Shown here: in pieces, positions 25,564-58,905 of the stretch | How the letters are laid out: each line of letters starts with the position of its first letter | How positions within the stretch are numbered: the first letter of the stretch is position 1 | Source: Spironucleus salmonicida | Taxonomy: Eukaryota | Direction of reading: 5' to 3' | NCBI RefSeq assembly: GCF_000497125.1 | Contig: NC_090598.1 | Span: 248,001-312,000, forward strand | Length of the DNA: 64,000 bases | Position numbers and translations under genes: made by a program | The notes under the pieces: model-generated | The model's input: only the letters and a program-made list of their open reading frames with translations | Databases searched by the model: none | Told to the model about the DNA's origin: nothing

Positions 25564-25596
<33 letters not shown>

Positions 25597-25753
25597 GAAC
25601 GTGTAAAAGTTTGATAGAAGTCAAATGGGAATCTAATAAAAGCCTTAATAAAATAATTTCAGCAGAAATTAAATGGGTTAATCATAGAAAAAAAATGCAT
25701 TTGAAGATCTCAAAAGAAGCAACGAATAAACTGTAACTTTGAACTTTAAGTGA
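25037..25753 (+). CDS. RRM-like protein with Q-rich FxRxxMG repeats (possible eIF4B/eIF4H-like), 238 aa
   Basis: IPRQGPYTIQLKDMSF...YYIEVTEYEQAVSLV resembles the eIF4B/H RRM. Five FxRxxMG repeats and a polyQ tract. Ends AAG TGA. Confidence 0.55.
25565..25597 (+). repeat. (TAA)10TAG microsatellite encoding poly-Gln (Q11)
   Basis: In frame within CDS 25037-25753. Confidence 0.9.
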
Positions 25754-25762
25754 ATTCAATAA

Positions 25763-26065
25763 TCATTTCATAATTTACTTCTTTTTATTTCTTAAATATT
25801 CGTAGGATTTCAGCTCTTAGAGTTGAAAATCCCGCATTTAAGATAACTATTACGCGAACTAGGCGTTATCTTTACGTAGTTGTTGCTATACAAGTTTAAA
25901 TTCTAATTGTGACCTATTTGAGTTGAGTTGGGATAGCTGATTATGCTCACGTATGAAGACCTCACTGATCTTACGATCAAGTTCTTATGTTTATCGTTTG
26001 TGAATCAATTAAATATGTGTGTCTAGATCTTAAAGAGATTCAAACTTTGTGCGGATTTTATTCAT
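25763..26065 (-). CDS. Small coiled-coil protein, 100 aa
   Basis: MNKIRTKFESLQDLDTHIQLIHKRQTQELDRKISE...KKKQIMK*. Confidence 0.7.
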
Positions 26066-26583
26066 TTGGAGATTTAGTATGTCTTATATTAATAAAATTA
26101 TATATAAATATTTTATCTACTTCTACAATAAATTCATTCTATAATCAGCTAATAATCTAAGCTCTGTAATATAATATTGATTGTATTTCTAACATCTTTA
26201 TAATAAAATAATAAAGATTATTTTACTAATGTAAAAAGATCATAAGGTTCATCGTATATAATAATTTAGGATAAATAAACACATGAAAATAGGGATAGTA
26301 TGTGTTACTCTAATGATAATTCATGTTTAAATAAGCATGTAAATTTTTAACATAATTTTGTAGAATATTAAACCAATACGTTATCATTATGAAAAATATT
26401 ATTAATACAATTATAGAAATTTCTATATTCTATAGGTTATGATAGAGTTAAGGTTTATTTCAATAAATGATCTGAATGAGTTTATTGATACGTCATTAAT
26501 AGATCATCTACTATTTTTGTCATTTAATCAAGGATTACTAAAAATAGATTTAATATATACTAATAGAAAGTCTGTTGTAAAAA

Positions 26584-27087
26584 TCACTTTACATTTTTCT
26601 ACTTTTTTAACGTTTACTTAATTATATAATCATTTATAATTTCCTCTTTTGATCTATTAATCGTGATTTCCTCTGCATGACAGTAATATTTTATTTTTAA
26701 GAAAATAATAAAGACCAATGGTAAGATTAAACTATAGACTAAACTAAAAATGACTAGATATAATTCATATCTATGGAATTGTTTCTCAATAATTATAATA
26801 ACTATTACTATAAGTTCATTAACTATTTATATAATAAGTGTAATAAACTTTATTATATCAAGGACTGTAGCTATCAATCCAGATTTATCTCTATTCCATT
26901 TTGATATAACTGTAAAGATGCGTAAAACTATTTTAACTAAAAGAACAATCATTAAATTTAATATTTTAACTTGGTTATGAAAAAAATATCCTAATGCAAT
27001 AGCAGTAAAATAAAATGATTCAATAATGACCATAACTATATTATGAATAGCCATCTTAAATAAATATTTTGGTTAGGATGGCCTCAT
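26584..27087 (-). CDS. Hypothetical membrane protein (~4 TM), ~167 aa
   Basis: Extends track ORF 26827-27054. Four hydrophobic segments; ends AAG TGA. Start at 27087 or 27054. Confidence 0.65.
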
Positions 27088-27143
27088 CTTCACAAATCCA
27101 ATACCAATAACAATTATATAGTATATTAAATATTATTTATAAA

Positions 27144-27650
27144 ATGAGCTAAAAAAATATAATTTTATAATCTCACCTCAGATCTCCCACAAGATTATTG
27201 TAGATACGGAATTAAGCGACTAGATAAAGTATTTCACCACTTTATCATATGTCTCCCCCTATCCGATATGAAAAACCAAAAACTGTTAACTATCCCATTC
27301 GAACTACCTCGCCTGATAAACTTGATTTAATGTATGACTGTATGTCTAAAGTGTAAAAACAAGTCCCAGGAGCAACTGCACCTAAAAAATTAAGATATAT
27401 TCCAAAGCCTAAAAAGCCAGAAATAACATTTGAGCATAGACTTGCTTATATTAAAAGCCTTGGTAGTACAAAGAAAGTCCCTAAGACAGAAGAATTGGCA
27501 GCAAATTATTTCAAAATTATGGAAATTGAAAAAGTTGTTCTGGAGAAGCAGTAAGAAGTAACATAGATATTCAACGAGCTTATCAAGTAGTGGTAAGACC
27601 TAAATAACAAGGATTGGCCGTAAAAACAGGACCTACATTAATTTTAGTGA
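27144..27650 (+). CDS. Hypothetical protein, 168 aa
   Basis: MSQKNIILQSHLRSPTRLL...QDLHQFQ*; ends TAG TGA. Confidence 0.7.
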
Positions 27651-27659
27651 TTATTTATT

Positions 27660-28538
27660 TCACTTTATATTTGATTTCTGCTTAGCAGCCCATTTTTTCA
27701 TTATTACTGCTCTATCTCCGCGAATCCAGCTCATTTCATCAAATTTTTGCGATATATTGAATTGACAAAGCAAGTAATCTGCCTATTGCGTGCTAATGAC
27801 GTCTAGATTCTTATATCTCCACTGACAAAACCCATTAGAAACTGACGGCAATTTCAGTGGGTTCCTGTCGATCTGAAGCCACATTTTCGAAATACTGTCG
27901 AAAACCCAAGCATCATTGATTATTTACTAATTAATATTGATACCATCAGCCAGAAAGAGGATTCTAGGAGTCAAATTTATCAAAAGTGCACTAGTTCTAG
28001 GTGACGGACATCCAACAGAATTGATGTATATTCTTGTCAATTATTTGTTTTCCAATATAAATAAATCTGAAGTAAGCTAACTTTGGAGCATTCCACTAAA
28101 AATATAGCACTTACCAGTTTAGGAGAATGAAAATTCTGACCAAATATACTTATTTGTGTTGATTATTTCAAAGGTAGCAGTGATAGGATCAAATGTTAAA
28201 ATAAATGACATCGATTCTGATGTTGCAAAAATGTAATAGTGGTCGGATTTTACGACTTGCTGGATTTCGTACATCGATGTGACTTGAGTTTTTATAATTT
28301 GCTACTTCTCCATGTCAAAAACTGATATATTTCCCTTATTATTAGTTGAAAATGCATAGGCTCCAGCTACAAATTAAAATCCGTTAGGTGGGGTAACAGA
28401 TAGTTTTGCATCTTAAAGTGGGGCTGGGAAACGAAAATCAGGGATCCTAAAGTGTATTCTTTATTGATCATGATGATTCAAATAAGCAATCGCCTCTTAT
28501 GTTGGGAACATTGTTGATCCTGGAGTTAATGGATACAT
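27660..28538 (-). CDS. Kelch/beta-propeller-like protein, 292 aa
   Basis: CYIFSGMLQSQLTSDLFIL...PSPRTSA...LFLADG...INDAWVFDSISKMWLQI is kelch-like. Ends AAG TGA. Confidence 0.65.
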
Positions 28539-28615
28539 TTGTCGTGAAATTTTATATTACTTTCAAATTTATATAATAATACTTATAAAAGTTTATAAAA
28601 ACTAAATAAAATAAT

Positions 28616-28996: not shown

Positions 28997-29053
28997 TTAA
29001 ATTTTACTTAAGTTTTTTATACATATTATTTATTATATTGTTACATAATGAAT

Positions 29054-29998: not shown

Positions 29999-30047
29999 TT
30001 TTGGTATTTTATAATAATATAGAATAGATAAATTTTTTGACTTGAAA

Positions 30048-31736
30048 ATGTTGTTAAATCTTTCTAATAATGCAGTTACAGTATAACCTATGTAGATCAG
30101 TTTTCATAATCCGTCAACACTTTATTATAGTTATAATAGTACTTTAGTGCAAGTTAGGGACTCTATATAGCCAAAACTTTTAAAACTTGATGGTAAAGTA
30201 AGTTTGACATAGAATTTTGCATATGCTTAGGATTTAAATACTATATACTAGTTACCAAATCTTGTGAATGCAGGAATTGTGACATCATTTGAACCATTAC
30301 TTAATCTTTTTGAGTTTAACAAATCATTAATTCTCCATTTTAAGGATAGAGTCATCTGTTTTAGTGATTCTTAAACTTAAACCTAAGTTGAAATCCAAGC
30401 AACCACATCAACTTCTTTCAACAATACCATTATATTTGGTTCTGGTGTAACACTGTTCACTTACTCTCCGTCTTTAAAACTTGTTCAGTCTATCGAATTA
30501 GAACTTCAAATGACCGAATAAATACAGTAAATCCAGGTAATTGATAAGTACATTCTTGTCCTTTCTACCATAGGGCGTGTTTTACTTGCTGATAATATTA
30601 GAAGCAGCCCAATTGAAATTTTCAAAGGCGATGTAACAAAAATCGTCGCAGGACCAGTTATTTAGGGTCTAATAATTGCAATCATCGAATCCAATAAACT
30701 TAATATAGTGAAAGTCTCTAACTCCGGAAATGGTGTTTAAACGCTCTACCAGAACACTTTTGAAGAAAATATTCGCGATTTTTTGTTCATTCCAGAATTT
30801 TAAATGCAGCGTTTTTTAAACGATATAAATGCGATAGCTATCGTTTTGACCTCAAAACTTTAGGCCATAATACTTGAAAATACAGACCTTTTCCTCTCAA
30901 AAACTCTTTTTAGAAACATTGAATCAGAATATGTCCAGCTCTAAAAGCTAAAAAATGGAATTTTGAAGGCCAAATCCCCAACTGAGGAGTGCATTGCTCC
31001 TGTTTCGCTCAATATTGAACTCATAAGATCATCTACAGAAATCTCTTTACAGATAACATCACCTTAATTTTGCGTTTATTTTGACGTTATTTTCCCATCT
31101 GGCCTCTTCGTAAGCTAAGGTGAATTTAACAATATTTAGCCGAATTCAATTCGTATTTTCGCTAAAGAAAAAGCAAATTTGACGTTTAAAATGATGCCTG
31201 GGTTTTAGTATTGGAAAGAGTCGAAATTCTAAATCTATGCTATTTCGGAAAGTTACTAAACTGGTTATAAATAAATTATTTTAGATAGTTTTAGTAGTTT
31301 TAAATAAATATAAAAATTACCGAAAATTGATGCTTTTTTAACTGCTGAAATAGATGAAAAGCTTGCAAATTTAAGCATTTCGACACCTGCTGATTTTTTG
31401 AATGTTAAAGTTGACGGCGAAAAAACAATAATTAAAGGAAGTAGTTATATCACTGTAAATGGTTATATGAATGAAAAGAGCCAACTAAAAAATTTGCAAA
31501 TTAAGTTTGATCAGAAAGGAATGGTTACCAGAATTAATGCATTTGTAAAAGTTTTTTCAGGAGTAGAAAATCCATTTGAATATGAAAAGATGTTTTAGGA
31601 TCTCGTATAGAGTTAAAAAGTATAGAACAAAAAATATGATGATAATTTGATCAGAAAAGGACTCAATTTGATTAAAAGTGGGTTATCAGGAAGCAATGAA
31701 ATGGGAATTGCGATGATTAAAAAAGCGTTAGAGTGA
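30048..31736 (+). CDS. Beta-propeller + short coiled coil + beta-sandwich protein, possibly divergent BBSome subunit (BBS2/BBS7-like), 562 aa
   Basis: The ORF is solid and includes track ORF 31398; ends GAG TGA. The family call rests on architecture and weak motifs (VIFPSGLFVSQGE, ILDSFSSF). Confidence 0.45.
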
Positions 31737-33294
31737 AATTTTGTCGTTTTTTAGTATTATAAACCTTTATGAGGCATCAATATATTGATTAAGATTAATA
31801 GATTAGATTATTCAATGTATGAATAAATCAATAGTATAACTTAAATTTATCCATCGAATAAGTATCTCCGGAATAATATTTATTTACATGTACATAATAC
31901 ATCAATATATGTGTATCATTAGTAATAGTTAATTATAAATATATTTTGTCTGAAGTGTTAAATAAAGATTATATCAACTAAAATTAAGTAATAAGTATTA
32001 GAGCCTGTATTTAATTTATAATTAAAAGTGCATTTAATTTTAATACATTGATGGCTTCCTGGTACTATCATACATATATCCAAAAATCAAGCTTAAATAT
32101 TTCAATTAAAAATATAAAGAGCTTTGTTTCCAATTAAATGATATAAAAATATTGTACAATGTATTAGATTTTATAAAATTAATATAAATGATAAATTGAT
32201 CGAATATGAATTCAAAAATATTATAATTATCATAGTATATAGATTATGATTAATGTTTAAAAATAAAATCTATATCATAATACTAACATTTTATTTATAT
32301 TCTAAGTAATTATAGATTACCTAAAGGTAAATTAATTTCAAATATTTTCAGATATTTCATTTTTATATTTATATTATTGAAAATTTAACTTACATTATTT
32401 ATATTATAAATAAAATGTAATATGAATATTTTAATATCTATCTAATATAATATTAGGTAGAATATGAAATTTGAATTCAAGTAAAAAATTAGTAAGATTT
32501 AAAATTACTATATAAATCAATATAAAAGTATAATATACCAAGTTACAATCAAATTAATAGGAAATGATCATATTCAGATATAAAGTGATAACTAGAATTA
32601 AAAATAGTAGATACTCCGTTTTTATTTTAAAATAAATACAAACAAAACTTAAATTGACTAAAACATTCAGTAAATATACATTCAAATATTAATATTATTG
32701 TCATCCAATGGTTATGAAAGTAGTGTGCTTTTAAAGAAATAATTAGTAAATAAAAATATTAATTAATTCAATGCAAACTAATTTTTGTTAAAAATAAAAT
32801 AATATGTCTATAATGAAAGTCATACTATTGTTTTGAAATGACAAAAAGTAGATAGTGGAACATGGATATAATCTTCTTACACATCCATGATACTTTATAT
32901 TTCTAGGCAACATTATATTTTTCAACTAAATTTGTGAAGAATTCATAAATTTATGCATTTTCATATTATTTCATATTAGATTATAAACCAACTTAGCTAG
33001 TTATTAATAAAAGTTTTAAGTATTTAAAAACACAGGAATATCAATACATACAAAGTAATAATAATGGAATACTATAGTAATAATCATAAAATATTGGTTA
33101 ATCTCCATAGTACTCGTTTTTATTGTAACCTTTAACTTTAGCACAAAACCGATTAAATAGATAGTAAAACTATTGAAAAAATTAAGTTCCGGATATAAAA
33201 TAAACTATTCTTCAAAAACAATATTGGTTGTACATTTGTACTAAATCATAATTATTACGTAAAATATGTTTTTAGCCAATTATATTATTTTCAC

Positions 33295-34251: not shown

Positions 34252-34309
34252 TTCTTGTTAAACTATGAAATTATAAGTATATAATAATTATATATAGACA
34301 AAATTAAAG

Positions 34310-35615: not shown

Positions 35616-37241
35616 ATGCAGTCTCCTTTACTAAAAAAATAATGTTTAAGATAGGCTAGGCCAGTTTTATTCATTAATAACTCACAACACAATAAGACCA
35701 AATATAAATTGTATAATGAAGTTAATTAAGAAAAAAATATAGACTTATCTATCAAGCGGTAATAAATAAATAACGAAGCAGTAATTGAGATGGATTAAAT
35801 GCCATCAAGAATCTATCTACATGAACTTCAATATGTTTGGACGTAATTAGACATGTCCTAATAAGAAAGATCATATGCAACCTATTAACTTGCTGTAGAC
35901 TCCTAGCAAATTTCAACATATTTAAAATTAGCTAATTAGGTAATACAGACTAGATTGACTGGTAAATAGTCACTTGAAAAAATTCGATAATTAGATTTCT
36001 CGTCTAATATTCATGATGCATTTTCAGAATTATAAACTCTAATATTAATTTTATTAGAATCACTTAACACATTTAGGTCAATTATTGAATAGCCTTTGAA
36101 TTTTGATTTCGAAATTTAGAATATTTTCACTAGTTTGATTTAATAAATGCCTACCACTGAATAGCTACTATAGTTTATGACTTCATTCGGTTATACATAA
36201 GATGCAGCAGAGAAGTAACTTTAAAACTACTTTTTATAGACATAACCGACATACAAAATAGAATAATCTATTTTTATACTATTTTTATGTCCAGAAAATT
36301 TCAAAGCAACTAATTTTCCCAGTAATTTTTCGAAGTGGGCACACCGTATGGCATCTACAAATTAACATGATTTCGCTGGGTAAAAAGCATTTATTATGTA
36401 CTAAAACGAGAGGCAACATATATAATAATTTAAATAAATTAATGACAAAATTCAATCAGAAAATTTTAGATTTGCCACAGTTCCAACAAAGAAGTCATCA
36501 ACTGTTTATGATCTTTACAATGTTCAACAGAAGTATGTTAGCGATATCATAGCTGAAAAAATTAATGAAAATGTGTAGAATTCGGCTAAGTAATCGCGTG
36601 CTATTTCGAGGATGAACTCTAGCTTTAAAATTACCTAAAAAGAAGTTAATTTCTCACAATAAATAATGAAAAGAAATGCTAATTAAGCTATTTTAAATTA
36701 TAAAAGGATATCATCAAGTTGTGTTGTATTAGAAGAGTTTTCTTAGTTTTATATTGCGTTACGGATTGATAATGTAGAATAAAGGTATATAAATTAAATT
36801 TGTTCAAAAAGCGAAAATTTACGTATAATGTTCATAAAAAATGCAAGATAGCTTATTAAAATCTAGGATGAGTATAAAATAAATTTTGTACAATTAAAAA
36901 ATTATATATAGAATAGCATAATTGACAATTAATTAATTGATTTAATTAATAGATAAATCTAGCTAGTATATTAAGCTAGAATCATATGCAATAGACCCAT
37001 TTCACTACCAGAATTGATTATTGGAACAGATTTCATTTTTCTATACTTTAATAAGCAAAAACATTTATTCAGTAGTGAACATATTAATATGTTAAATCAA
37101 AAATATTTAAGTTAACTTTAGCATGAAAACGAAGTCATTTACAAATTTATTGCTGATTAAGAGTTTTTTATTGAAAAGGAATACAGAATTTTTACTTTAA
37201 AATTCGAGCTGAATGAATACGATATCTATAGGCTAGAATGA
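35616..37241 (+). CDS. Unknown helical-domain protein (family member C, domain internally duplicated), 541 aa
   Basis: EKNIDLSIKR (cf. QKNVDLTIRK in B), VWTQLDMSQQERSYA (cf. LWDALQCPQQERDYA), and a second copy ending ARIICNRPISLPEL (cf. ARRFSARPIDLPTL). Confidence 0.7.
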
Positions 37242-37245
37242 TATA

Positions 37246-38091
37246 TCAATAGGAGTGACCGTATTCAGTTAAACCGATGTTATTCATTTCTAATTTAATA
37301 AATTTTAAGCTATTGGGAATAAAATAATTTTCGGCAATTTTATTAATAACAAAAAGTATTATATCTACATCAACATCAAGGTAATTATTAAAATAAATTC
37401 TAGCAAAAAATTATTAATAATCATCAGTATTTTTTAAATTATAATGATTTATTTCATTTTAAATTTACTAATAGAACTCTTACTACCAAAGGGCTTTATT
37501 TTAGGCATCCTTAATATAGCAAGAGCGCATGGTTAGTTAAATCTCTTTACTTTAATACATCTAAGTATTCTTTTAATGTTTTGAATTTTTTTCTAAATGC
37601 TATATCCTAAATTTCTGATAGTCTTAATAAATAAATATTTCACGTTTATTCCTTTAAGATAAGTTAATGTTTGATTACATAGACTGCCTGTATGGAGACT
37701 ATACTTATCTAACGTTATTATGTAAATAATTAAGCTAAATATTATGAAGCCTGCTTTCTTCATCACGTTATTTATAACGAACATTAACATAGGTGCAGAT
37801 AGGTTTTTCATGATAGGATTTAATAGACGGTTTTGAATTATTGATACTTTGCTTCAAATAATGCATTTAAATTTAGTGTTTTCTTGAGATTTCAGCTCTT
37901 TCATTAGTAGTTAAGTTCTAAGTTAAAGGATCATATTGTTTATAATTCTTAATTATCGGATTTCGGATTGAGTAAGGTATTGTTGAATCAACAACAGATT
38001 TAGGGTTATTAACTTTCTGTAAATGATGATAATACCTATAATTTAGGCAATCTTGTTCTTAATAGTTTAATTCCACTTGTTCGATTTTCAT
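37246..38091 (-). CDS. Hypothetical protein, 281 aa
   Basis: MKIEQVELNYQEQDCL...EYGHSY*; TGA-free frame. Confidence 0.65.
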
Positions 38092-39860: not shown

Positions 39861-40347
39861 TTTATACTATTGGTTTTTTCTATAGATTTGTATTATATTA
39901 TATTTACTATAAAATTTAAGGAAAACAGTTTTTATAGTTATAGTAAAATTATTATAAATTATTTAATAAAATAATGATCTTATTTTAATTAAATTTTCAT
40001 CTCTCAAATTTTGCTTTAAATCATAGCATTAGACGTAGAAATTCGTATATATAAAATTTTGAGAATATTAGTATGCACAATAAATAATATTAGATAATAT
40101 TTCTTATTAAATGAATATGAGGTTTAAAATGTTTATGTTATAATTTATATGATAATACGTAACCAGATTGATGTTGTTAAATCTACCGACTACTATATAT
40201 GTACTTGTATAAACATAATAACAAAAGAACATATCTTAATTATATTACAGTATTCACGTCGAAACTTAGTTCTAACCCAATAAAATAACATCGAGATAAA
40301 TATTTTATATAAATATATTATTATACACAACTATATCTGTTACAAAA

Positions 40348-40671
40348 ATGTCACTTTCGCAAACGTATCTAAACCATATTTTCGCAGTCCCGTAAAAATA
40401 GTTTTACGAGAATCGCTTTCTTGAGATACCATCTGATCTAACAAAAAATGAATCCATTGAAGAGTTATAACAAACTCGATAGTTCCGGAGCTTGATATAT
40501 TTGCGCAAGAAAAAACATACTTTCAATGTAGAAAAGGCTGAAAGATTTATTAAAAAATGGTAGTATAAGCATGATGTTTCTGTCACTAGGGCATTAAGTT
40601 ACCAGACACAACGCATTATATTGAAAAGAGACCTACCAATGGTAACGGGATAATCTTGGGACTTTAAGTGA
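40348..40671 (+). CDS. Hypothetical protein, 107 aa
   Basis: MSLSQTYLNHIFAVP...QSWDFK*; ends AAG TGA. Confidence 0.65.
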
Positions 40672-40680
40672 AAAAGTCAA

Positions 40681-41535
40681 TCACTAGGCCATTCTCCTTT
40701 AGTCACCATGTTCTATTAAACTAACTTCCAAATTATCATCATCGTCTAATATGATACCGCTGTTCTCGCTTTTAGATCTTGATTTTAGAGAATCCATCTT
40801 CACGCCTGTGATATCTTGAACTTGATTAATTATTTCATTCTATACAATAAGTTCCATTTCAAGATCTTTAATTCTATAGTAATTTCGTATAACTTCTGTG
40901 AGTTCAGTTTAATCAGCTTGACAGAAATCGTCTAATTCATTTAGATATTTGTTTTGAATTTATAGCTTTTGTGTCATTTCTACTAAACTTGTTGGAAAGA
41001 CTGAGTGCTCGCTTTTATATAGCTCCTAAATAATTTTTAGTTGCTATACTGCAATCTTCTGCTTTGCTTTGTCATAAAGCAGTTTCCTGGCACCATCAGT
41101 TAGAAGATTTTCATTCTCCAATAGTTACTTTGCATCAATTGTAGCAGGACGTTTTTCTAGTTCATCTAACGCTTCTTGCTTACTTTTGTAAAGGTGTTCA
41201 AATTCTCTTTATTTTTAAAGTAACTCCATTTCCTGCGTTTTTTAAAGTTCTTTAAGCGAAATTTTTTGCATCATTTACTGTTCTTCAAGTCGTTTATTGA
41301 GGTCGTCAATAAGATCTTCCTTACCATTTTGTTATTTTGATGCATTTTAAAGCTCAATTCTCGTTTATGTGAGTTCTTTATTTACACGATCCAATTCTAA
41401 AAATGCTCTATCCATGTACATTTTATACTTAGCAGATTCATCTTAATTGGATTAAGCCTTTCGTTCCTTGTACTCTTCTTCTTCTTCAAAAAGCCTAGGT
41501 TATTTTACGATTTTATCATAAATAGTTTTGGGCAT
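40681..41535 (-). CDS. Coiled-coil protein, 284 aa
   Basis: MPKTIYDKIVKQPRLFEEEEEY..., E/K/Q/L-rich heptads; ends TAG TGA. Confidence 0.8.
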
Positions 41536-44239: not shown

Positions 44240-45442
44240 ATGGAAATATAGTATAAAAAGTTAATATATGATTTGATGAATAATGATAACCCATAGTATA
44301 TTAACCAATCTCTTAAAGAAATGCATTTATTTATCACTGAATATTATCTTTAGCCTTTCTTAAATACACCTAATTTTCTAAAGAGATTTTTATTATTTCC
44401 AACATTTTAATCTCCAGAAATAGTTTCAGAATCTCTATTCCTATTAGTAAAAATAACTGAATTACGTTCAGAAACCACAATTTCTTATCTCGTAGCTTCT
44501 GGTTTATTAAATCTACTTCAATATTTTTATTCTACTAGTTATTATTCAACTACAGAGTCCTTCGGAAATTATACTGATATTTAGCGCCTGAAATACATTT
44601 TCACATCAAATCTTCTTCTATTTACTTCATCATCTTAACTTATTATTAGAAATTTAGATAAAGCAATTGAGTCAGATATTAAAATAATTAATAAGACATC
44701 AAAAATTTTCAAGTACGCAGCATTTTTAATGGCTGGAATTGTTCAATTCGGATAAATTTCTATTGAAACACTTATTTATTTATACTATCCAGAAATGGAT
44801 AATGATGTAGCTTTTGCAGTACTTAACGCAATTTATGACTATTAATGTCATTATTTGATTAAAAATCTTCCTATCACTAAATTTGGGAAACATTTATAGC
44901 TATTTTCCATTAAAAGATAGTCCCCAGATGCTCGTAAAGTTATTAATGCAATCCTAAAAATACTTATAAACATATAACTAGATCTTAATACAGTATAACA
45001 ACTAGCACAGATTACAGAGCAGATTATTGAATTAATTAAAAATGAAGATCCAGTTATTTAAATTGCTGGTTGGCAACTCACATTAACTTTGTCTTGTTTC
45101 TAAGAAGGTGCAGAATCTCTAGCAATGACCTGGTTACTTAGATATATTTTGCGTGGAATTAGTGTCATAAACCGCCAAGAGCCTATTTAAATACTTTAAA
45201 ATTTATATTTTCATAATGTTATTGTTCTCACGACTCCAGAAATGGTTGTTTAAATTTGCGATTATTTTAGGTCTCTTTAACGTAGCAACGATAAGGAGAA
45301 ATAGATTGAAATAGTGGAAATACTTAAATTTATGGGATCAGATTACGCGGTTCATTAACACCTTTTAAATTGTGATATTGTGACAGATTTACGGGTATCA
45401 GGATTTGAGTATGATGCGACTTATATAGAAAATTAAAAATGA
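44240..45442 (+). CDS. ARM-repeat-like protein, 400 aa
   Basis: Helical repeats, e.g. EDPVIQIAGWQLTLTLSCFQEGAESLAMTWLLRYIL. Confidence 0.65.
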
Positions 45443-45443
45443 G

Positions 45444-45923
45444 TCATATCTGCATTGCATTCCATATTTTCAGTACCTCTGCCTTTTCTTCCTCTCTTTA
45501 TTCGCAAATCGATGCGAATGAATACCATTCTTGTTTGTCTCCATCAGATAGCTTACTCCATTCTCTAAGTAATATTTCACCTTACCTAGCATCCATTTTG
45601 ATGTCAGAACCTAGTTCGATCACGCGGATTGCATAGCAGACCATAAAGAAAATTCGAGTGAATTCGTGTCTTTATCTGTTGAATTCTTCATCAACTTTTT
45701 GCTCTGGATGACGTGCATACCATGCTGAAAGCTAGCGTTCGTAAATCTACGAATCTTCATTAGCTTTACGTTTCCAAATAGTTCTCTCTTTTTCTGACAT
45801 TACTTTCCATTCAGCACCTAATTTTTATTATCTTGCTTTAAATTCCATATTCATAAGTGTTTTCTTTCTATCTTCAGCCCATTAGAAGTATGCTGAAAAG
45901 GGCTTCTTGGGCTTTTAATCCAT
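45444..45923 (-). CDS. HMG-box protein (two boxes), 159 aa
   Basis: KPKKPFSAYFQWA...KLGAEWKVMSEKERTIWKRKANEDSQIYE; second degenerate box REWSKLSDGDKQEWY. Confidence 0.9.
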
Positions 45924-47859: not shown

Positions 47860-50800
47860 ATGTTGGAATCTTTTGTAGTTAATTTACTATAGGATTACGC
47901 TGAGAAATACTTAGAACAATTTGATAAAAAGATGCTTTAGATATCCTTAGTAAAAGGAGATGTACAAATTAATCATTTATAGCTTAAAGCAGATGCTCTA
48001 CAAGAAATACACCCGGCTTTATGTATATAACATGGTTTTATTAGTTAACTACAAATAAAGTTTTCTATTCTCAAATTAAAGTCTGAACCAGTTTCAATTC
48101 GAATTTAAGATTTTGTAGTGCTGTTGAAATCAAGTAAGGATAAAATTATTACTAAAGAATTTATTTCGTAATAAATATAAGATGGTTTAGAAGAAAAAAT
48201 AAAAAGTTCTTTTAAGTATATGCTTTTTAAAGAAGAAGTATTAAAGGAGCCAACTAAATAAAAAAATGGATACATTAAAACTTTAATAAAAACTATTTTA
48301 ACTAATTTGAAAATTGAAATAAATAATATTCATATACGATATGAAGATAATGATTTAAAACATTGCGTAGGTTTAACAGTACAGAGTATATGTTTAAAAA
48401 CTATCAAATATGTAGAAATTAACAAATAATTGATAGAAAAAGAGTAATTTGTCAATGAGAACGCGTAATCTTTTATCAAAAAAATAGATATTACTAATTT
48501 TTCTGTTTATTTAAATTTAGGTTATATACCAGTTAATTTATTTCATGATTCGACAAATATTAAGTAATTTTTAGTTAATACCGTTTAATTTTAAGATAAT
48601 TATAATTATTTGATAAGACCAACAACATTTAAGATGTATCTAGAAACAGGTGTGTAATCTGATATTTAAAAATTTAATATTTAAGCTAGCATAGATAACT
48701 TAAATTTTTAATTTACAACTAATTAATTAGACGCAATTATTTAGCAAGTACAGTAATTATACTCGAAGAATTAACTAGGTAATATAATTTATTACCCAGA
48801 AGATAAATTACTAATAAATAAGCATTAGTGGTGGTCCTATATTATGGCATCATATGACAGCGTCGACACTTTATGGTAATAAAAGGCATCTTTTTCTGCA
48901 TTCATACATTTATATTCAAAACATTATATTTAATATTAATAGATGTCATAGAAATAAAAAGATTCTACTATAAATGTTTTTTAATTGACGAAAGTAGAAG
49001 AAGAATATATTTATTTATTTTATCAAACTTTTTCATAAAAAGAGATAAATTTTTGTATAGAAACGACATTAAAACAGTTGAAACAAAGAAGTGGAAAATT
49101 TTTTAAATCATACTAATAGCTTATATTAGATGATACAATAATAGAAGAATTATTATTATAATTCATAGCGGATAATTAAACTAGAGATTATAATTTGGAT
49201 AGTAGTTAATTTAATATTACTTTCAAAATAAACTAAATTAATGTAAGTCTTTGTTAACATTAAAAGCAAATTAGTATTAAGACTTAATATGGTTGTTAGG
49301 CAATCGGATAATAGCATTTATAAGAAAATATATTATCAGTGGAGATTATTTAAACAAATTTCAAATTTATTTTTAACAATACAGGATTTTAGGTGGATCT
49401 TTAAATTAATAATTTTATTTTAATTGATAATTTTAGCCTCAAAGAACCATATATAATAATTTAACAATTTATTGGTTTACCTTTTTAAGACAAAAAATAA
49501 GTTATAGCGTTAGATATATAATTATTAACTCTGTAATTTATCAAAAGTAATGTTGATTAATAATATAACTTAAAATTATAGGCGTAGCCGTTATTTATTT
49601 AGTATTAATAATGTATTTTAAATCTTGTTAGTAGGCTGATTTTACTTTTCAAGACTCTAAATAAGTATAAAAATCTAGAATCGTTATAGTAAATCTCTAA
49701 CTTAGTTGAAAAATCATTTAACTAGATCTAGTAACATTCATAAAACGCTATCAAGATTGCAATTGATAATCATTTAAAGTTAAAACTTCAGTTAAAATTG
49801 TAAGCCCCTATATTATCACTTTGTATTGATGAGAGAAATTTATTAATTAATTTAGGCATGGTATCTATTAATACTTCTATGCCAAATTTAGATAAGTTAT
49901 ATGATAATTATTAAGTTAAGCTGGATAATGTATATGTGTTTTCATCTGAATCAAAAGTATTGACTAATTAAATTTTCAGTTATTTGAAAAATAAAGAGAC
50001 AGAATTAGATCACAAATTAGACAATATGTATGAATAATCTATAATCTTATTCCCATTTAAATTAATTGTAGATTTAAATATATGTATATTAAGAAATATA
50101 GAAGATAAGCCTTAAATTATAGTAAAATCATAAATTGAGAATATAAATGTTAATATAAATGAAAATAATATTATATGCACATTGTAATTATTATAGCATT
50201 TATTAAAATATTAGTCATCATAGAGAATCTCTATTTTAAGCACACAGACTAACATTTCTAGTTTAAATATTACTGATAGTGATAAAAGTGTAGTTTAATT
50301 ATCATAATAATAAGAAATTGATATAGTTGTCACTAAATTAGTATTTTCGTTCGATATTAAATCATTTGTCATCGTTTTTAGTTAATAGTATAAATCTTTT
50401 GAGCTAAAAGTTGAAGGTTTCTAAGTATAGATAAATTAATTTTCATATAATACTTAAGCTTTCTGCATACTTAATTGTCTTACATTTATTGATTTGTCTA
50501 GTAATAAATAAATATTTTGTATAGGAGCTTAAGATAGTGCACTTGATATAAAAGTTTAAACATATGATCACTTGCATCTATCATTTTAAGGAAATGCTCT
50601 AGAGACTTAAATTTGTATCGGCTCTGTAAATATATATTATGAACTCTAAAGATGTTAATAAATTTTAGATTGCTTGAGTTCTTTTGTTTAATTATTTTAG
50701 CTTAATGTGGAATCTCTAGACCCTAAACTGAAAGTGTAAAATTTTAGTAATTAATCTATAAAAACTAAAATGGATAACATATAATCTAATTATTCATTAA

Positions 50801-53800
50801 AATTAGTAATAAAATTTAATTCTATATCAGTATTTATTGAACAATAGGCTTCGTTGTTAACAGTAGTTATGATAAGATAAATAATTATTAAATATTAATA
50901 AAATGATGAAAAGGTTGAAATTAATTTAGCTTTATAAGAATTTTTAATTAAATCTCTTCTTAATGACGAAAAATATATAGTTTCTTTTAATTCATAAGAT
51001 GATAAAAACCTTAATGTATCATTTATTTTATTTAATAACCCATCAAATATTTAGCCAGATATACTAGTGAATTGTAATATTTTATCTAGAATAGAAATTA
51101 TAATTGATTTAAGATTTTTACTTCTGTTAAAATACGAATTTGATAATATTCTTAAAATACTAAGCGACTAGTTTTCAAGTTCAAATATTAGGCAAAGTTA
51201 ATCAGTATAATAAATAAATATATAATAGGTGTTTTAAATCGATGCAAATATTATTGCTCCAATAATAATTATTCCTATTTCTCAAGGAAACGAAAAATCT
51301 TTATTTGTAGATTTTGGTCGTATAAAAATTTCTAGTTCGTTCACTAAAGCTAAAGATCTCGAAATGTGTTAGTAATTCTTTTTATCATTTGCAAATTTAA
51401 TGATATTATCACATTTGCATGAAAATATATTAACCCCTGTATCATTAGAGTGTTACATATAACTATGTACTAATTAGTAGAACTAAAATATTATGATAGA
51501 ATTAGTAATAAATTAAGTTACATTTACTGTAACCAAAGATATTATTTATTTCATATAGGATTTATTCCTAATATAAAACAATTTTGGTTACAATATTTTA
51601 TAAGATATTTTTAAACAATAATCCGACATTGATTTAATAGATAAAAAAATAAAGAATAAATAATTATAAATTGATAGTTTTTAATACTCTGATGCGATTA
51701 TTAAAGAGAAAATGTTAACAGCTATAAATAAAAATACAGTTCTTAATTTAACAGAATAAATATAAAAAATAAAAGACAGAAAGATAGAAATTAATATTGA
51801 AAAAATTAAATTAAAATTAAAATTAAAATAAGATACTTTAAACTAAAATAAAGTTAAAAAATAAATTAGATAATGGAATATTATTTTTAGTACTTAATTT
51901 AAAGGGTTTTAATTAATGATAGATGATAAAGTAAGTATAAATTTCAAAGGATTTAATCTTAATTATTAGAACTAATAAAATATTTCAAATATTGTATTAT
52001 TAATTGGATCATTTAATATTTTGTTAGACTAAACACCAATTCTCTAATCAGAATAATAAGTATAGTTTAAGTGTGAGAAAATTCTTAATAAGTTTAACAT
52101 AGAATCTAATTCTTAGTCTAAAATTTAAATTAATTTGCTTTTAGTGTAATTTATAAACTATTTTTATTCATATAAGAGTCCAGAAACTAATGATTTGACA
52201 TTATATCAATTAATATAGGAACGATCTCTTTTTATGGACTCTTTTAAGATAGCAAATAATTTATTTGATGAAAAATGTTAAATATTTTCACTACTATAGA
52301 ATCATTAGTATGTTCATACTTATACTTTAAAAAGAATTTAACCCTATTAAAAATCCAGGTGTGATGAAGTTAATCTAAATCTAACGTTTCCATAAGTAGA
52401 GATATAAATACCGACCATTGAAAATAATTAATATTTGTTAATTTATTTTTAACCTATGATTTCTATAAATATGGTACACAATCTAAAATTAAATATAGAC
52501 AAAAAAGGAATTTATGTATCTTTTAAAATGGATAAACTATTAGAAACTAAATGTTAGATCGATGGTTTTAATTTATAATTAGTAAATAAGGAAATAAAAT
52601 AATCTATTATTGATAATTTATCATTGGATATCTGTTATTTAATGACACAAAACTAAATATTAGTATAAAATCCTTTACAATTTATTAGAGAAGAATAAAC
52701 AACTTAGATTGAATGTAAATTTTTAAGCTAAATTCAAGTTACTATTACTACTTAATAATGCAAAACAATACAATAAACATTAAATTCGTTACTGAAATAG
52801 ATATAGAACTCTTAATAGAATGTATAACCTGTTCAAGTGAAAGCAACACAAAATAATTATGTTGATAATTTAGATATTATAAAGGAAGATGCGCTGAATA
52901 AAACTCTTCTACCTGAAACTTGTTATTTAAGTAATGATGTTTCATTTAACAATAAATCACTAAATATATATAATACATTGCATTAAACTGATATATAAGT
53001 TGCTATCACATTCGCCTCTAGTATAAAATTCTTTGATGACTTCAACGATTTCTAACCATTGGTGAAAATAGATATTTTAAATATATACTTAAGTATGGCT
53101 TAAATTTAGCAATATTCTGATAAAAATGATATAGTTATATCTGGAAATTTGGAATTAAAAGTGTCACATTACAATTAACCATTTTAAAATTGGGAAACCT
53201 TAATACCAGGTTTGAAATTATAGGTAAATATTGAAAAATTATTCTCCACAGTAAACAATTAGTTTATTACAAAATGCAATGTATTGATCCCATAGGTGCA
53301 ATTTAATTTATCTAATTTAATTTTTTTGTCTATAAACAATATAATATAAGTTTCACAATTAATCGTTTAGAATGAACCTGAGAAGAAAGTGGAATTTTTA
53401 TCTAATTATAAAATCCACTAGTAAAAGATAATTCATAAAAAACTTTCAATAAAAATTGAAAACAACCTTGATATTGATATAGGTCTATAAAATTATAATA
53501 TTTAGCCTTTAAATTATGTTGAAATTTCTTATTAGGATAATATTAGTTTTGTTATTGGAGATTAAACTATAGATATACCAGTAAAGATGTAATATCAATA
53601 AAGGACAAGTGTAAATAATTAAGATATATTTATTTATGTAGAATATATAGATAAATTATACTAAGTTTGCTTCAGACCATTATATAAGATTGTTAATATG
53701 ACGAAAATAAAACTTTATATTTAAAATACCCAATTTAAAACATTCTATACGGGATAGTGTTTAATGTAGTTATCATTAATAGATAAATCTAGTAAATGCA

Positions 53801-56523
53801 CATAGATAGATTTTAACAATATAAGCGAGTCTATTCTTATTGATGATAAATATTTTAGGTTAGAATACTCACGACGAACTTTTGAAGAAGTGTAGCTTAT
53901 AAATATGTTTATTTACCCATCTTTTATCATAACTAGTTACTGCAATTATTAATTACTATTTGATGATTATAACTTAAATCCTCTTACATCTATTGAATTG
54001 TATGTAAATCCTTATAACTCATTATCTTTTAAAACTATATATTATTATGAATAATTCACTGCTAAAAACTAAAAATTATTTGAGTATTATAGTAAAGTTC
54101 CTGTATTATCCGACTAGTCTAAAAAAGCAAAAAGATTAAGGATAGACTATCTTATTAATAAATGTATTTACCACACTCCTACCACATTATAATTAGCTTC
54201 TTCAAGTAAAGAATCTTACTATTTAGGTGTTAAACGTTTAGTTTCATAGAAGGAAAATACTTCAAATACGTTTAATTACTAAATTATATTCTACCCGTAT
54301 TATATTTTGGTAAATAGATTATTTATTGAAAGATAAGTAACTTCTAACTATATTTAAATTAATTGTTAACATAACACAAAATATTAGTGTTAATAAGGTG
54401 ATTATATGGAACTAGGTATAATGAAATCATAAAAATGCGAAATTTAAATTTATCAAAACAACAAAACTTTCAAAATTAAATAATATGAAATTAATAATGA
54501 GAATACTATGGTTTAGTTAGCTTAAGAATAAGAGTTCTTATAGACTAGAATATAGTATACTAATTCAAAGTAGTAATTAACAAGAATAATTACAGTATAT
54601 CCAATATTGATATTGAGAAATAATTCTACTCTTCATTTTTTTTATGAATTTAATGATAATTATTCTAATATCGTATCAAGAAAACAATAAGCACATATAA
54701 ATAGTTAGTAGATAGTTAGTAGTTTCTAATTAACAAATTATTTTTATTTGCAACATAATAATATATGGTCTTCTCCAATATCATTAGACTAATAGGGGTC
54801 TTTTACTATTCTTTTCTAAGATATTGATCTAAAATGTGGATTACAAGTTAAAAATATAAATGATATAGTACTAATAGATATTTTTGAGGAAATTTCTGGA
54901 TAACAAATTCTTATTAGTAATTTAACATCTGTAGATTTTAGAATTTCATAAACTACAGAAGGAGATATAAAAATTTACAATCAGTATTATAATCCTGTTT
55001 GCAAAGCGAATTAAATTATTAATTTCTAAGTGTATGATTTAGGTATTCCATAATAGATAAAATTATAGTAAGATGAAGATTTTGTAATAATTTCCTTAAA
55101 TAAAATAGGTAAATGGTAACCTAAAAAATTTGGCAACCACCTTATCTTTGCTTAAGTTGATATCAATGCTAATACAGTTAAGGTTTCATTTAGCTTCCAT
55201 AAAATAGAAGAATTAACAATTTTATAAAAAGCAACAAAAAAATTTAGTGAAGAACTTATTAATGCTAATATTGAAATTTAAATTGAGTAAATTTAAATAT
55301 AAGTTTATCTTAATTGCCACAATTATAAGAAAACCTAACAGAATGTAACTGTTTAGATATTTACATTTTAGTTAAACAATGTCAAAGCAACTCTATTTGA
55401 TTTATAAGAAACGTAAGCTTTAAATTTGGAGGTTCAATAAATTTACCTATATAATTTAGATAAGGCTGCAGATTTCCCTGTTACTGTTAAGTTTTAGCCC
55501 AATAGTTATGATATTAGTGCTCTTAGTATTTAGCTAGAGAAAATTAAACAATACAATCAGTTTATTAATATTAATGTTGCCATTTAGCCTATTTAACTTA
55601 ATATAGATCAGTCATTTTTAGAGAATATATTACTATTTATAAATTCACTTACAGTATCCGAAAATATATTTAGGCTCCCTTAGTAGCAAATGGATATAGA
55701 TGATAAGGAATTAATGTACCAGACTGTATTTAAACCTTTCATTAATATTGAATAATCAAAATTTAATGTCTAAAAAATGTTTATTGCTTTCTTTAATATA
55801 TCTGATATTTATGCAAATGTTAATGTAGCTATTAATGATCTTACATTTTTAGAAAATAATTTTTGGTATTAATTGTTTAGTAATATTGCGTCACCATTCA
55901 TGAATATTACTTCAGCGAATATAAAATTTCAATATTATAAAAAGAAATCATTTATCACAGAGTAATTTGCCTTAATAAATGAAGTAAAGAGATTTTATTT
56001 GGGATAGATTAAGAAAAATATAGGAAATCTCATTAAGTCTTCTATTATTAGTGGATAAACAGCATCTTATGTTGAAGAATAATCTAGTCGTATGTAGGAC
56101 ATTAAAACCTAATCAAGAAAATTAGTAGGAAATTCAGTTTCTAATATTGCAGGCACTGTTTCTTCTGTAGCTAGTTTCATATCAGGAGACTTAAATTACA
56201 AAAAGACTAGTTAAAAACTAATTAGAGACTCATAATAAAATGGCAAAAATGCTATGAGAAATGCTGGAAAAGCACTTACAAATGGTTTCGTAGAGGGATT
56301 AATTGGAATAGTTAAATAACCAATAGTTGGTGGATAGTAAAAGGGTTTTGGTGGTGCTATATCAGGAATTGGTAAAGGTATTGTTGGTATTTTTGCTAAA
56401 CCTGTTTAAGGAATATCTGACTTTGTAGAGCATGTAGGTATTGCAGTAGAAACTGGAGGGAAAAACTAAATGAAAGATTAGATTCCTGATCAATTAATAT
56501 TTAAAAATGGAATTATTGAGTGA
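47860..56523 (+). CDS. VPS13: VPS13 family lipid-transfer protein (paralogue 2), ~2887 aa
   Basis: MLESFVVNLLQDYAEKYLEQFDKKMLQISLVKGDVQI, NNIHIRYED, WEPLIP. C-terminal GFVEGLIGIVKQPIVGGQQKGFGGAISGIGKGIVGIFAKPV. Ends GAG TGA. Confidence 0.9.
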
Positions 56524-56532
56524 AGTGTTAAA

Positions 56533-58905
56533 TCATATAATGCAGCTTATCCCAAGCAGACTGCACAATACAAAAATATAAACTGCTGGCCAGATTTATA
56601 CTTCGTCTCTTTCCACTTTTTCAGAAGGAAAACATCCACCGGCAAATATAATTTCAGAGCAAGTTTGAACACATTTTCCTGTCTTAAAATCAGCAAATTT
56701 ATCACAATATGAGACACACTTACCACCACTAACAAAAAGCCCATCAGAGCATTTTTAGACACACTTCTTAACTCTGGCATCTTGCAAAAGACCGTCACTA
56801 CAGCGCCAAACACACATTCTCGAAAAAGGGTCACCATACATACCACTATCACATTGTTCAACACACATTTTTGTTTCAGGGTTTCCGTAATTAGAACATT
56901 TAAAGACGCATGTTTTAGTTTTAAAATCAGTAAATCTACTACATTCTGATACACACCTGGTATTCTCTGTAAAATTAGCACATTTACTAACACAAGAACC
57001 ATTTTAAGTAATAAAAAGATTATCAGGACAAAGATATTCACATACATTATTATGGTTCTTAAAAGAAAAATTAGGACAAACATCAACACATGTAGAAGTT
57101 CTTTAATCTAAAATTTTATTAGCAGGACATTCTTAAACACAAAGGTTAGAACTATTAAAAAGTTAATAACAAGTTTTACTACAAAAATTTTTATATTATA
57201 GTAAATTGTCTGGACATTTTATGACACATTGCCGAGCCTATAAATCATCAAAATGATATTTATCACATTAATTTTTAGACTCGTTAAATAGACTGTTATA
57301 AAATTCAATTTCTTGGATACAAATAGATTCATTAACAGTAACAAAATTTTCAGGACATACTCGAGTACAATTTCTTTAGAAAATATCAGTTAGGTAAGAT
57401 TTTGGACAATGGTTAACACAGATTCCATTTAGGTTAAATTTTAAATTTGGACAGGAAGTAAGACAAGAATTATCATTTTAAATTAATGGGTAACAATTTT
57501 CTTAACAAATCATTGAGTAATTATTATAAAATGTGTTCGTTGGACAGATTTTTACACATTATAAATTATATTTGTATTCTGTTTTACCACAATTTTCTAC
57601 GCAGGTTTATTACTGTAAATTAAAATAGTATGGACATTTTATAAAACATTTTCTTAATGTAATATCTGCAAAGTAACCGTGTGAACACTTGTCAACACAA
57701 AGCTAATGCTCTTAGAACAAGTTGTTTAAACATACTACTTCTAAAACTTAAGATTAATCTAAAAATGAATTTTAAATATATAATTTATTAATTTCTGCTT
57801 TTTATATTTATCTGCATATTTTGTTCTCCTCAATATACCCTAAAGGACAATTTGTTACGCAAACGGTTCCAAAAATAAATGTACATTCTTAAAATAAAAT
57901 ACATTTTCTATTTTCAACCATTAATATCTTATCTGCAGGACATTACTTGACACAATAATCATCATTATAAAGAAATGGAAAATCGCAAAAAAATTAATTT
58001 TAGTTAACTTAATTTTTTAATATACACTATCCATCCATGGGAATAAAGTTATCATCACAAAATATTTAACATACACCAGATTAGTTATAGGAATTATAAG
58101 GACAGATAGGAACACAACTACCATACCAATATACATAATTATTTTAACATCTATAAAATGTCTGGTTATCATAAGCATGAAAAAAAATTTCACCAAGGTG
58201 AATTTGATAATGGGATGTATTAAACTGATTTTCTATAATATTCTTGTTTTCTGGTTATTATCTATTAAATTTATCTACATTTTACTATAAAAAGTTAGTT
58301 TTCGGCCCAGAAAGTGTATCAGAAATAGTAAATGGTAATAAAATAGATCTATTAAAAATAAAATGTTCACCAATAAAATGGTTATAATAATATTTTACAT
58401 GTTATTAAACTATATCCTATCTACCAATATAATAATAAGTTAATGTCTTATTATAAAGTTAAATCGTTGATATTAAAAACTCAGGATTAATAGTTTACTG
58501 TATAATAAATTCAATAGGTTTAACACTATCTTTGCTTAGGCTGTAATCTTAAACCATATATTTAAAATTATTATTATCAATACAGCTGCCATAAAATAAG
58601 ACGTTATTAAATATATTTTGGCCTAAATCTAGAATAATAGTAGAATTAACGGTTGCTGGTTTTTAGCAATTAATATATATTTAAAGATTAGATATATTAC
58701 ACCTATGAAAAGCGAAAACTGCAGTCTAGTAATGCTAAGAAAATTAAAGCTAGCTTTTCATATTTAATGATATTTCAAATATGTTGAATACTTATTATCC
58801 AAAATCAATAGCTTCTTAAAAACTTACACAATAGTCATTTTAAGTCAAAATTGACTAGTGAATTATATGACTGCAAGGTTAGTAGAATGTTAGCGTCAGC
58901 AGCAT
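56533..58905 (-). CDS. Cysteine-rich membrane/surface protein with CxxxC (furin-like) repeats, 790 aa
   Basis: Short signal MLLTLT, a Cys-poor N-terminal region, many CVxxCP repeats and a terminal hydrophobic segment IWPAVYIFVLCSLLGISCII*. Confidence 0.85.

What the first reader, a model, noticed from the sequence alone, without database searches (positions are those of the whole stretch)
25748..56535. Convergent genes end on a symmetric TGA-N9-TCA element: candidate shared bidirectional terminator
Seen: four tail-to-tail pairs have exactly 9 nt between their stop codons: 25753/25763, 27650/27660, 40671/40681 and 56523/56533. The other three close pairs have gaps of 31, 4 and 1 nt. In all four the + gene ends in AGTGA, and in two both genes do. 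Inference: if AGTGA is the poly(A) signal, the partner's stop (TCA on this strand) could supply the CA cleavage site at a fixed distance, so one 15-nt element would end both mRNAs. The sample is small.
Basis: partly seen in the sequence, partly recalled or inferred. Interest (0 to 1): 0.75.

Follow-up and report, generated by a model that had tools for sequence, protein, structure and literature searches.

The report
Tail-to-tail genes share poly(A) spacer
In this fish-parasite-type protist, genes that face each other often end nine bases apart, so that each message gets its poly(A) tail on the neighbour's stop codon; this is a very compact, measurable layout of an already known stop-plus-poly(A) signal.

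Summary
The window reads under NCBI table 6 (TGA the only stop), like Spironucleus salmonicida, where AGTGA is a published dual stop/poly(A) signal and 3' UTRs are 9-14 nt. All four 9-nt gaps are real.

Genome-wide, AGTGA-Nk-TCACT counts per spacing are 12.5 (k0-7), 41 (k8), 97 (k9), 46 (k10), 35 (k11-13), 17.5 (k14-17) and 8.5 (k40-45); controls average about 7. After removing duplicated copies, 9 is still the mode, about 1.8 times a plateau at 10-13.

RNA-type contigs show untemplated tails on the partner's TC^A at two 9-nt sites (27662 +, 40669 -).

CA is not obligatory. A tandem gene is tailed at +10 and +14 without CA, genes without a close partner show no CA peak, and other gaps (0-5, 10-14) occur.

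Best reading: two independently read RNA signals squeezed together until each cut site falls on the partner's stop, with TCA sharpening the cut. It is not a DNA terminator or a strict 9-nt rule. I did not find it in print. It is a new variant of known dual-use signals.

The parts
25749..25765 (.). AGTGA-N9-TCA junction, asymmetric (partner ends AATGA)
   Evidence: no tail listed
25037..25753 (+). 238-aa Gln-rich protein gene ending in AGTGA; only a weak TFIIA hit (E 0.004, below cut-off)
   Evidence: covered by contigs of high depth
25763..26137 (-). 124-aa ORF, no Pfam hit, weak coding score (4.7); start uncertain
27646..27664 (.). Symmetric AGTGA-N9-TCACT junction
27078..27650 (+). Up to 190-aa ORF ending in AGTGA, no Pfam hit; start uncertain
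27662..27662 (+). Poly(A) site of the + gene: 8 untemplated A behind the A of the partner's TCA (+12; cut after +11 or +12)
   Evidence: run X4, one contig; the genome behind it is not A-rich
27660..28538 (-). 292-aa Kelch-repeat-like gene ending in AGTGA
   Evidence: PF24681 E 2e-8, below cut-off; contigs in all four runs
27648..27648 (-). End of the X4 contig of the - gene at +12, the A of the opposing TCA; no tail listed
   Evidence: table 8 record 26
40667..40685 (.). Symmetric AGTGA-N9-TCACT junction
40171..40671 (+). Up to 166-aa ORF ending in AGTGA, no Pfam hit; not picked by my gene model, start uncertain
40681..41535 (-). About 284-aa gene ending in AGTGA, no Pfam hit (frame has an ATG as far up as 42402)
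   Evidence: contigs in all four runs
40669..40669 (-). Poly(A) site of the - gene: 9 untemplated T on the + strand before the position that is the A of TCA on the - strand (+12)
   Evidence: run X4 record 31
56519..56535 (.). AGTGA-N9-TCA junction, asymmetric (partner ends TATGA); outside the stretch laid with RNA
47860..56523 (+). VPS13-family gene, 2887 aa, ending in AGTGA
   Evidence: PF12624 E 1e-32
56533..59097 (-). Cysteine-rich protein gene with a hydrophobic C-terminus (resembles the genus's cysteine-rich membrane proteins)
   Evidence: PF00757 E 1.5e-6; C-terminal sequence
31732..31750 (+). Control: tandem gene ending AGTGA at 31736, tailed at +10 (after G) and +14 (after T), no CA
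   Evidence: X2 31746, X4 31750
37239..37248 (.). Control: 4-nt convergent gap, neither stop in GTGA context; an AGTGA lies 13 nt behind the + stop
45440..45446 (.). Control: 1-nt convergent gap, neither stop in GTGA context

Best explanation
The junction is two dual-use stop/poly(A) signals back to back, sharing one UTR-length spacer. On each strand the reduced cleavage and polyadenylation machinery reads AGUGA at the stop and cuts about 9-14 nt downstream (published). Compaction shortens convergent intergenic DNA until each cut site reaches the partner's signal (inferred). At 9 nt the partner's stop, read antisense as UCA, puts a pyrimidine-A step at +11/+12, mid-window, and the cut is made there (shown for two mRNAs, suggested for a third). 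The two mRNAs then overlap by the 15 nt TGA-N9-TCA and by no sense codon. The TCA tunes the cut but is not required (shown by the control gene). That this tuning is why 9 is the mode is inferred. The spacer sequence is free; its length is what recurs.
For: Spacing profile with a leading edge at 8-9, a peak at 9 and a plateau to 13, matching the 9-14 nt stop-to-tail distance in 122 of 134 ESTs (PMC1805757). 2 of 2 tails at 9-nt sites lie on TC^A, plus one contig end at +12, while the control gene with no A in +3..+16 is cut at two sites. The spacing follows the signal, not the stop: in L034 an AGTGA just behind a TTTGA stop lies 9 nt from the partner's TCAC, and in L032 an internal AGTGA does so in a 43-nt gap. 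Gaps under 8 nt go with weak stop contexts: 6 of 7 pairs with no GTGA stop vs 2 of 13 with one (Fisher p=0.004 including the window, 0.09 for C1 alone). Giardia cleavage sites have an A peak directly downstream and U-rich flanks (PMC9014877).
Against: The tails come from single contigs of one run (X4), and all four runs are of one study. There is no general CA or A peak behind AGTGA: CA at +11 in 4 of 65 solo genes, VCAC 139 vs control 128, A at +12 7754 vs A at +15 7514, while the upstream controls differ by more (7934 vs 7399). The one-sided form AGTGA-N9-TCAW, which offers the same CA, is only modestly enriched (266 vs 215 at N15, p=0.011), less than a pure CA benefit predicts. Two AGTGA-ended genes have partners 2 and 3 nt away (L020, L019). 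Only 5 of 9 distinct N9 sites inspected have ATG-ORFs of 80 aa or more on both sides. Contigs of X1, X2 and X3 bridge 40671/40681.
Confidence: 0.5

Rival explanations
1. Pile-up at a lower wall with no benefit from TCA. Deletions shrink the gap until something else forbids less than 8-9 nt, for example a 5-bp AGUGA/UCACU hairpin hiding the signal. The cut on TCA is then coincidence, since +11/+12 is where most mRNAs end anyway.
For: The excess is strongest for symmetric pairs (97 vs 17.5 per spacing at k14-17) and weak for TCAW (266 vs 215). There is no CA preference in solo genes. The hairpin is the MFE fold at both symmetric sites, -2.2 to -3.1 kcal/mol. The shape is an edge, a peak and a decaying tail.
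Against: Hairpin energy has no threshold that fits: k=8 is as stable as k=4-6 (-3.3 vs -3.2 to -3.4), yet k=8 is already enriched. RNA interference cannot be the wall, since Dicer, Argonaute and RdRP were not found in this species (PMC3916229). Overlap into the partner's coding sequence is tolerated in pairs with 0-5 nt gaps. After de-duplication 9 still exceeds the flat 10-13 plateau by about 1.8-fold (p=0.02).
Confidence: 0.32
2. One reading: one 15-nt element with a fixed 9-nt spacer, in which the partner's CA is the required cleavage site.
For: Mode at 9; both observed tails on TC^A.
Against: Tails at +10 and +14 without CA; excess also at k=8 and 10-13; most genes have no opposing stop nearby and no CA peak.
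Confidence: 0.06
3. A DNA-level palindromic site (5-9-5) bound by a dimeric protein that stops RNA polymerase II from both sides.
For: Perfect dyad symmetry with a free spacer; stronger excess for symmetric sites; some N9 sites have a credible ORF on one side only (L012-L015).
Against: The symmetry follows by itself from two identical signals on opposite strands. Spacer lengths 8-13 are all enriched, the mRNAs are cut inside the site, and contigs cross one junction. No candidate protein was looked for or found.
Confidence: 0.05
4. An artefact of recent duplications or chance.
For: 19 of the first 50 N9 sites are repeat copies (arms 99.5-100% identical). About 19% of this species' genome is reported as duplicated (PMC9509377). 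The window is richer in 9-nt pairs than the C1 sample.
Against: 31 distinct spacers among those 50 sites; the peak survives de-duplication (p=0.007 and 0.02), as does the step from k1-7 to k8-13 (p=6e-7).
Confidence: 0.04

Closest known systems
Dual-use stop codon / poly(A) signal of Spironucleus (AGTGA; PMC1805757, PMC2874811, PMC3916229)
   Same: Same motif (47 of 105 modelled genes end in AGTGA), same code, tails at +10 to +14.
   Different: These papers treat one gene end at a time. The passages I read do not mention a preferred convergent spacing or tails landing on the partner's stop.
Giardia AGURAA/WGURAA signals and dual-use stops (PMC9014877, PMC11529991, PMC7641422)
   Same: Short signal-to-cut distance (13-15 nt from the first A; here 15-19), few auxiliary elements, an A directly after the cut, very short intergenic DNA.
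   Different: Three stop codons and dual use in only about 7-18% of genes; no convergent-spacing rule in the passages read.
Yeast bidirectional termination zones (bioRxiv 10.1101/2022.11.02.514956, abstract)
   Same: One region ends transcripts from both strands of convergent genes.
   Different: About 120 bp wide and centred on a shared self-complementary UAUAUA element. Here it is 15-19 bp, made of two separate signals that are also the stop codons.
Overlapping 3' ends of convergent yeast mRNAs (bioRxiv 10.1101/551689, abstract)
   Same: Complementary 3' ends of close convergent genes.
   Different: Here the overlap is predicted to be only 15 nt, covering both stop codons; duplex formation in vivo is untested.
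Entamoeba stop codons acting as initiator for antisense RNAs (PMC8874941)
   Same: A stop codon re-used as a processing landmark on the opposite strand in a compact protist genome.
   Different: There it marks a transcription start; here it marks the 3' cut of the neighbour's mRNA.

Membership tests
Diplomonad dual-use stop/poly(A) signal | TGA the only stop; TAA/TAG read as Gln | tested here: met
   10 ORFs of 80 aa or more under table 1; under table 6 full-length VPS13, SF-assemblin and others
Diplomonad dual-use stop/poly(A) signal | AGTGA enriched at gene ends | tested here: met
   47 of 105 modelled stops
Diplomonad dual-use stop/poly(A) signal | Poly(A) tail 9-14 nt after the stop | tested here: met
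   4 of 4 tails at +10, +12, +12, +14
Diplomonad dual-use stop/poly(A) signal | Mutating AGUGA abolishes cleavage | not testable with these tools
   needs a reporter
Bidirectional termination zone (yeast type) | 3' ends of both strands in the same region | tested here: inconclusive
   At 27650/27660 a + tail and a - contig end, both at +12; at 40671/40681 only the - tail
Bidirectional termination zone (yeast type) | One shared self-complementary element read from both strands | tested here: not met
   Spacers are unrelated in sequence; each strand has its own AGTGA
Bidirectional termination zone (yeast type) | Polymerase release and nucleosome depletion at the site | not testable with these tools
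   No nascent-RNA or chromatin data; contigs cross one junction
CA-directed cleavage (metazoan-type CA preference, recalled) | CA preferred at the cut site across genes | tested here: inconclusive
   2 of 4 tails at CA, both at convergent sites; no CA peak in 65 solo genes or in VCAC counts
Hairpin-type terminator (bacterial intrinsic or giant-virus hairpin rule, recalled) | Stable stem-loop at the 3' end | tested here: not met
   MFE of the 19-nt junctions is 0 to -3.1 kcal/mol

The most novel reading that the evidence does not exclude
A reciprocal 3'-end code. The sole stop codon does a further job: read antisense, UCA(CU) is the selected cleavage site for the facing gene. Several hundred convergent pairs would then be held at a ruler distance of 9 nt, with each mRNA ending exactly on its partner's stop codon and the 15-bp overlap possibly coupling the two mRNAs' termination or decay.
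Probability: 0.2. Interest if true: 0.75.

Novelty: new variant of a known kind. Interest (0 to 1): 0.55.

Why it matters
The spacing histogram is a genome-encoded ruler for the signal-to-cut distance of one of the most reduced polyadenylation machineries known. It gives natural spacer variants (k=8-13) with which to test whether the cut is placed by distance or by a local YA step. That bears on the published idea that stop/poly(A) overlap drove the TAA/TAG-to-Gln reassignment. It also helps annotation: an AGTGA-N8-13-TCACT marks likely gene ends on both strands, including short ORFs that gene models miss.

Tried and rejected
Standard-code ORF calling gave almost nothing.

No RNA holder on record was listed; X1-X4 are guessed RNA. 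Their untemplated tails and gene-shaped cover fit RNA, but DNA may be mixed in. Of 16 loose ends, 12 were adapter and 4 were A/T tails; 44 of 76 contig pieces were not shown. No tail was listed for either gene at 25753/25763 or for the + gene at 40671, and 56523/56533 lay outside the laid stretch; these blanks are no evidence.

My first gene model missed one partner in three of the four 9-nt pairs. The relaxed filter kept 2 of the 4, so gene-level counts are lower bounds. An apparent T excess at +15 in solo genes (40 of 65) was not borne out at the predicted size genome-wide. Raw motif profiles in the 264-kb sample were too noisy for AATGA and TCAW pairs. Hairpin energy vs loop length gave no wall at 8/9. 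RNAi-based dsRNA avoidance was rejected from the literature.

A full gene-level histogram of the genome, and a check of ORFs around more k=9 and k<8 sites, remain open: only the window, 200 kb of C1 and 15 loci were analysed at gene level. De-duplication was by eye from listed rows (first 50 sites for k0-7, k9, k11-13; all sites for k8, k10); k14-17 and k40-45 are raw counts.
Full report
Organism and code. The window is 27% G+C and has only 10 ORFs of 80 aa or more under the standard code. With TGA as the only stop (table 6) it fills with genes, among them two VPS13 proteins, an SF-assemblin/beta-giardin and a cysteine-rich furin-like protein. Code, stop context and gene content point to a Spironucleus-type diplomonad, most likely S. 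salmonicida; this is my inference. For that species AGTGA is the published putative poly(A) signal overlapping the stop (PMC3916229, passages). The stop-to-tail distance was 9-14 nt in 122 of 134 ESTs, mean 13.2, with a U-rich stretch near the tail (PMC1805757, passages). S. barkhanus behaves alike (PMC2874811, passages). The machinery is reduced; the text of Figure S5 lists Yth1, Ysh1, Pap1, Glc7, Pab1, Cft2 and a CstF1. The logo itself is a picture I could not see, and 4 of 15 supplementary files were not searched; it may show downstream preferences.

The observation. All four 9-nt gaps, the AGTGA contexts and the three other gaps (31, 4, 1) are as reported. Two of the eight ORFs (25763-26137 and 40171-40671) are weakly supported as genes.

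Is it more than chance? I counted AGTGA-Nk-TCACT in all of G000, with the reversed-pattern control in brackets: k0-7 100 in total (59), k8 41 (13), k9 97 (4), k10 46 (11), k11-13 106 (24), k14-17 70 (24), k40-45 51 (29). Per spacing that is 12.5, 41, 97, 46, 35, 17.5 and 8.5 over a control mean near 7.

Many sites are copies in inverted or tandem duplications (arms 99.5-100% identical). About 19% of this species' genome is reported as duplicated and GC-rich (PMC9509377, passages). Removing copies by eye leaves 29 of 41 (k8), 33 of 46 (k10) and 31 of the first 50 listed (k9). Over the range that all listings share, distinct sites are 3, 7, 4, 7, 8, 5, 2 for k1-7, then 8, 22, 13, 13, 11, 13 for k8-13. 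The step from k1-7 to k8-13 has p=6e-7, and 9 against 10-13 has p=0.02. The true shape is therefore an edge at 8-9, a mode at 9 and a plateau to 13, which is the published UTR length range. It is not a lone spike.

At gene level I could examine only the window, 200 kb of C1 and 15 loci. Among 20 close convergent pairs, gaps under 8 nt occurred in 6 of 7 pairs with no GTGA stop and in 2 of 13 pairs with at least one (p=0.004; C1 alone 4 of 5 vs 2 of 10, p=0.09). No pair with GTGA on both sides was closer than 9. In two pairs the 9-nt distance runs from a signal that is not the stop: L034 (stop-to-stop 14) and L032 (43). Of 9 distinct k=9 sites inspected, 5 have ATG-ORFs of 80 aa or more on both sides, 3 have a credible gene on one side with a short or absent partner, and 1 has none. 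So not every motif hit is a live gene pair.

Where do the mRNAs end? Contigs of four runs of one study, guessed to be RNA, were laid on 24300-42700. Of 16 loose ends, 12 were adapter and 4 were untemplated tails. In X4 the + gene stopping at 27650 carries A8 behind 27662, and the - gene stopping at 40681 carries its tail from 40669. Both are +12, the A of the partner's TCA, with no genomic A-run behind; since the base is an A, the cut is after +11 or +12. The X4 contig of the - gene stopping at 27660 ends at 27648, again +12, without a listed tail. The other two tails belong to a tandem gene (stop 31736) and lie at +10 (X2) and +14 (X4), after G and T, where no A is available between +3 and +16. 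Contigs of X1, X2 and X3 bridge the 40671/40681 junction, so some reads cross it (longer isoforms, uncleaved RNA or DNA). This is direct but thin evidence: single contigs, and both TC^A tails from one run.

Is CA a general cleavage motif? Not detectably. Behind 65 AGTGA-ended ORFs without a close partner, CA is flat (4 of 65 at +11). AGTGA-N9-VCAC, a CA that cannot be an opposing stop, counts 139 against a control of 128 built from slightly different words. A at +12 is only slightly more common than at +15 (7754 vs 7514; upstream controls 7934 vs 7399). AGTGA-N9-TCAW, the partner with a weak stop context, counts 266 against 215 at N15 (p=0.011). This is a smaller excess than expected if CA alone were the gain. 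In Giardia an A peak lies directly after the cut, with U-rich flanks (PMC9014877, passages), so a weak YA preference inside a distance-set window is plausible, but here it is inferred.

Mechanism. Shown: the spacing distribution, its tie to GTGA-type signals, and cuts on TC^A at two mRNAs. Published: the signal overlaps the stop and cleavage follows 9-14 nt later. Inferred: compaction drives facing signals together until each cut window meets the partner's signal, and at k=9 the antisense stop offers a YA step in mid-window, which makes 9 the mode (0.5). The main rival is a wall with another cause and a coincidental cut on TCA (0.32). A 5-bp AGUGA/UCACU hairpin would explain why symmetric pairs are the constrained ones, but it is weak (-2.2 to -3.1 kcal/mol) and k=8 is no less stable than k=4-6. 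RNAi avoidance is out, as Dicer, Argonaute and RdRP were not found in this species (PMC3916229). The strict one-element, CA-required form (0.06), a DNA-bound dimer (0.05) and a duplication artefact (0.04) fit worse. The predicted 15-nt overlaps would pair at -14 to -19 kcal/mol; whether they do so in cells is untested.

Comparison and novelty. It works like a miniature of the yeast bidirectional termination zone (10.1101/2022.11.02.514956, abstract and outline only) but lacks the shared central element. It is a member of the diplomonad dual-use signal class by the three features I could test (see also PMC11529991 and PMC7641422, passages; PMC9014877). Overlapping convergent 3' ends are known in yeast (10.1101/551689, abstract and outline only), and stop codons re-used on the antisense strand are known in Entamoeba (PMC8874941, passages). 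Seven library searches and term look-ups in the Spironucleus and Giardia papers found no report of a preferred convergent spacing or of tails on the partner's stop. I read passages, not whole texts, and subscription papers are not covered.

Noticed in passing
G000-wide; L001/L002, L003/L004, L008/L009, L010/L011, L012/L013, L014/L015: Many sites occur as near-identical inverted copies 2-20 kb apart (arms of 0.67 to at least 2.6 kb, 99.5-100% identical, often GC-rich). In L010/L011 and L012/L013 one arm boundary lies 2 and 17 nt beyond the element, so a duplicated gene carried its partner's signal with it.
   Followed up: partly
window 37241/37246, 45442/45444; L016, L019, L020, L034: A second class of convergent pairs with 0-5 nt gaps, in which at least one stop (usually both) lacks GTGA; their poly(A) sites are unknown and must lie inside the partner's coding sequence if UTRs are 9 nt or longer.
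   Followed up: partly
window 10059-18638 and 47860-56523: Two paralogous VPS13 genes (2859 and 2887 aa), 29 kb apart on the same strand.
   Followed up: partly
window 18670-19425: SF-assemblin/beta-giardin family gene (PF06705, E 7e-13).
   Followed up: partly
window 19526-24325: Two long + ORFs in the same frame separated only by one TGA at 21413-21415, with an ATG directly after; long antisense ORFs overlap the second. UGA can encode selenocysteine in this genus, so readthrough is conceivable.
   Followed up: no
window 29852-29872: An AGTGA-N11-TCACT near the 5' ends of divergent genes, not at modelled gene ends: a motif hit without an obvious pair.
   Followed up: no
G000 C1:1910845, C2:6749, C2:1846813, C4:4490: The same AGTGA-N7-TCACT string recurs near contig ends, probably part of a subtelomeric repeat; it makes up 4 of the 5 listed k=7 sites.
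   Followed up: no
solo AGTGA-ended ORFs in window and L016-L035: T at +15 in 40 of 65 and A in only 9; the genome-wide A count at +15 vs +12 showed a smaller effect than predicted.
   Followed up: partly
window 40362-41528: Contigs of three runs span the 40671/40681 junction, while X4 shows a clean tail there: possible readthrough or alternative 3' ends.
   Followed up: no
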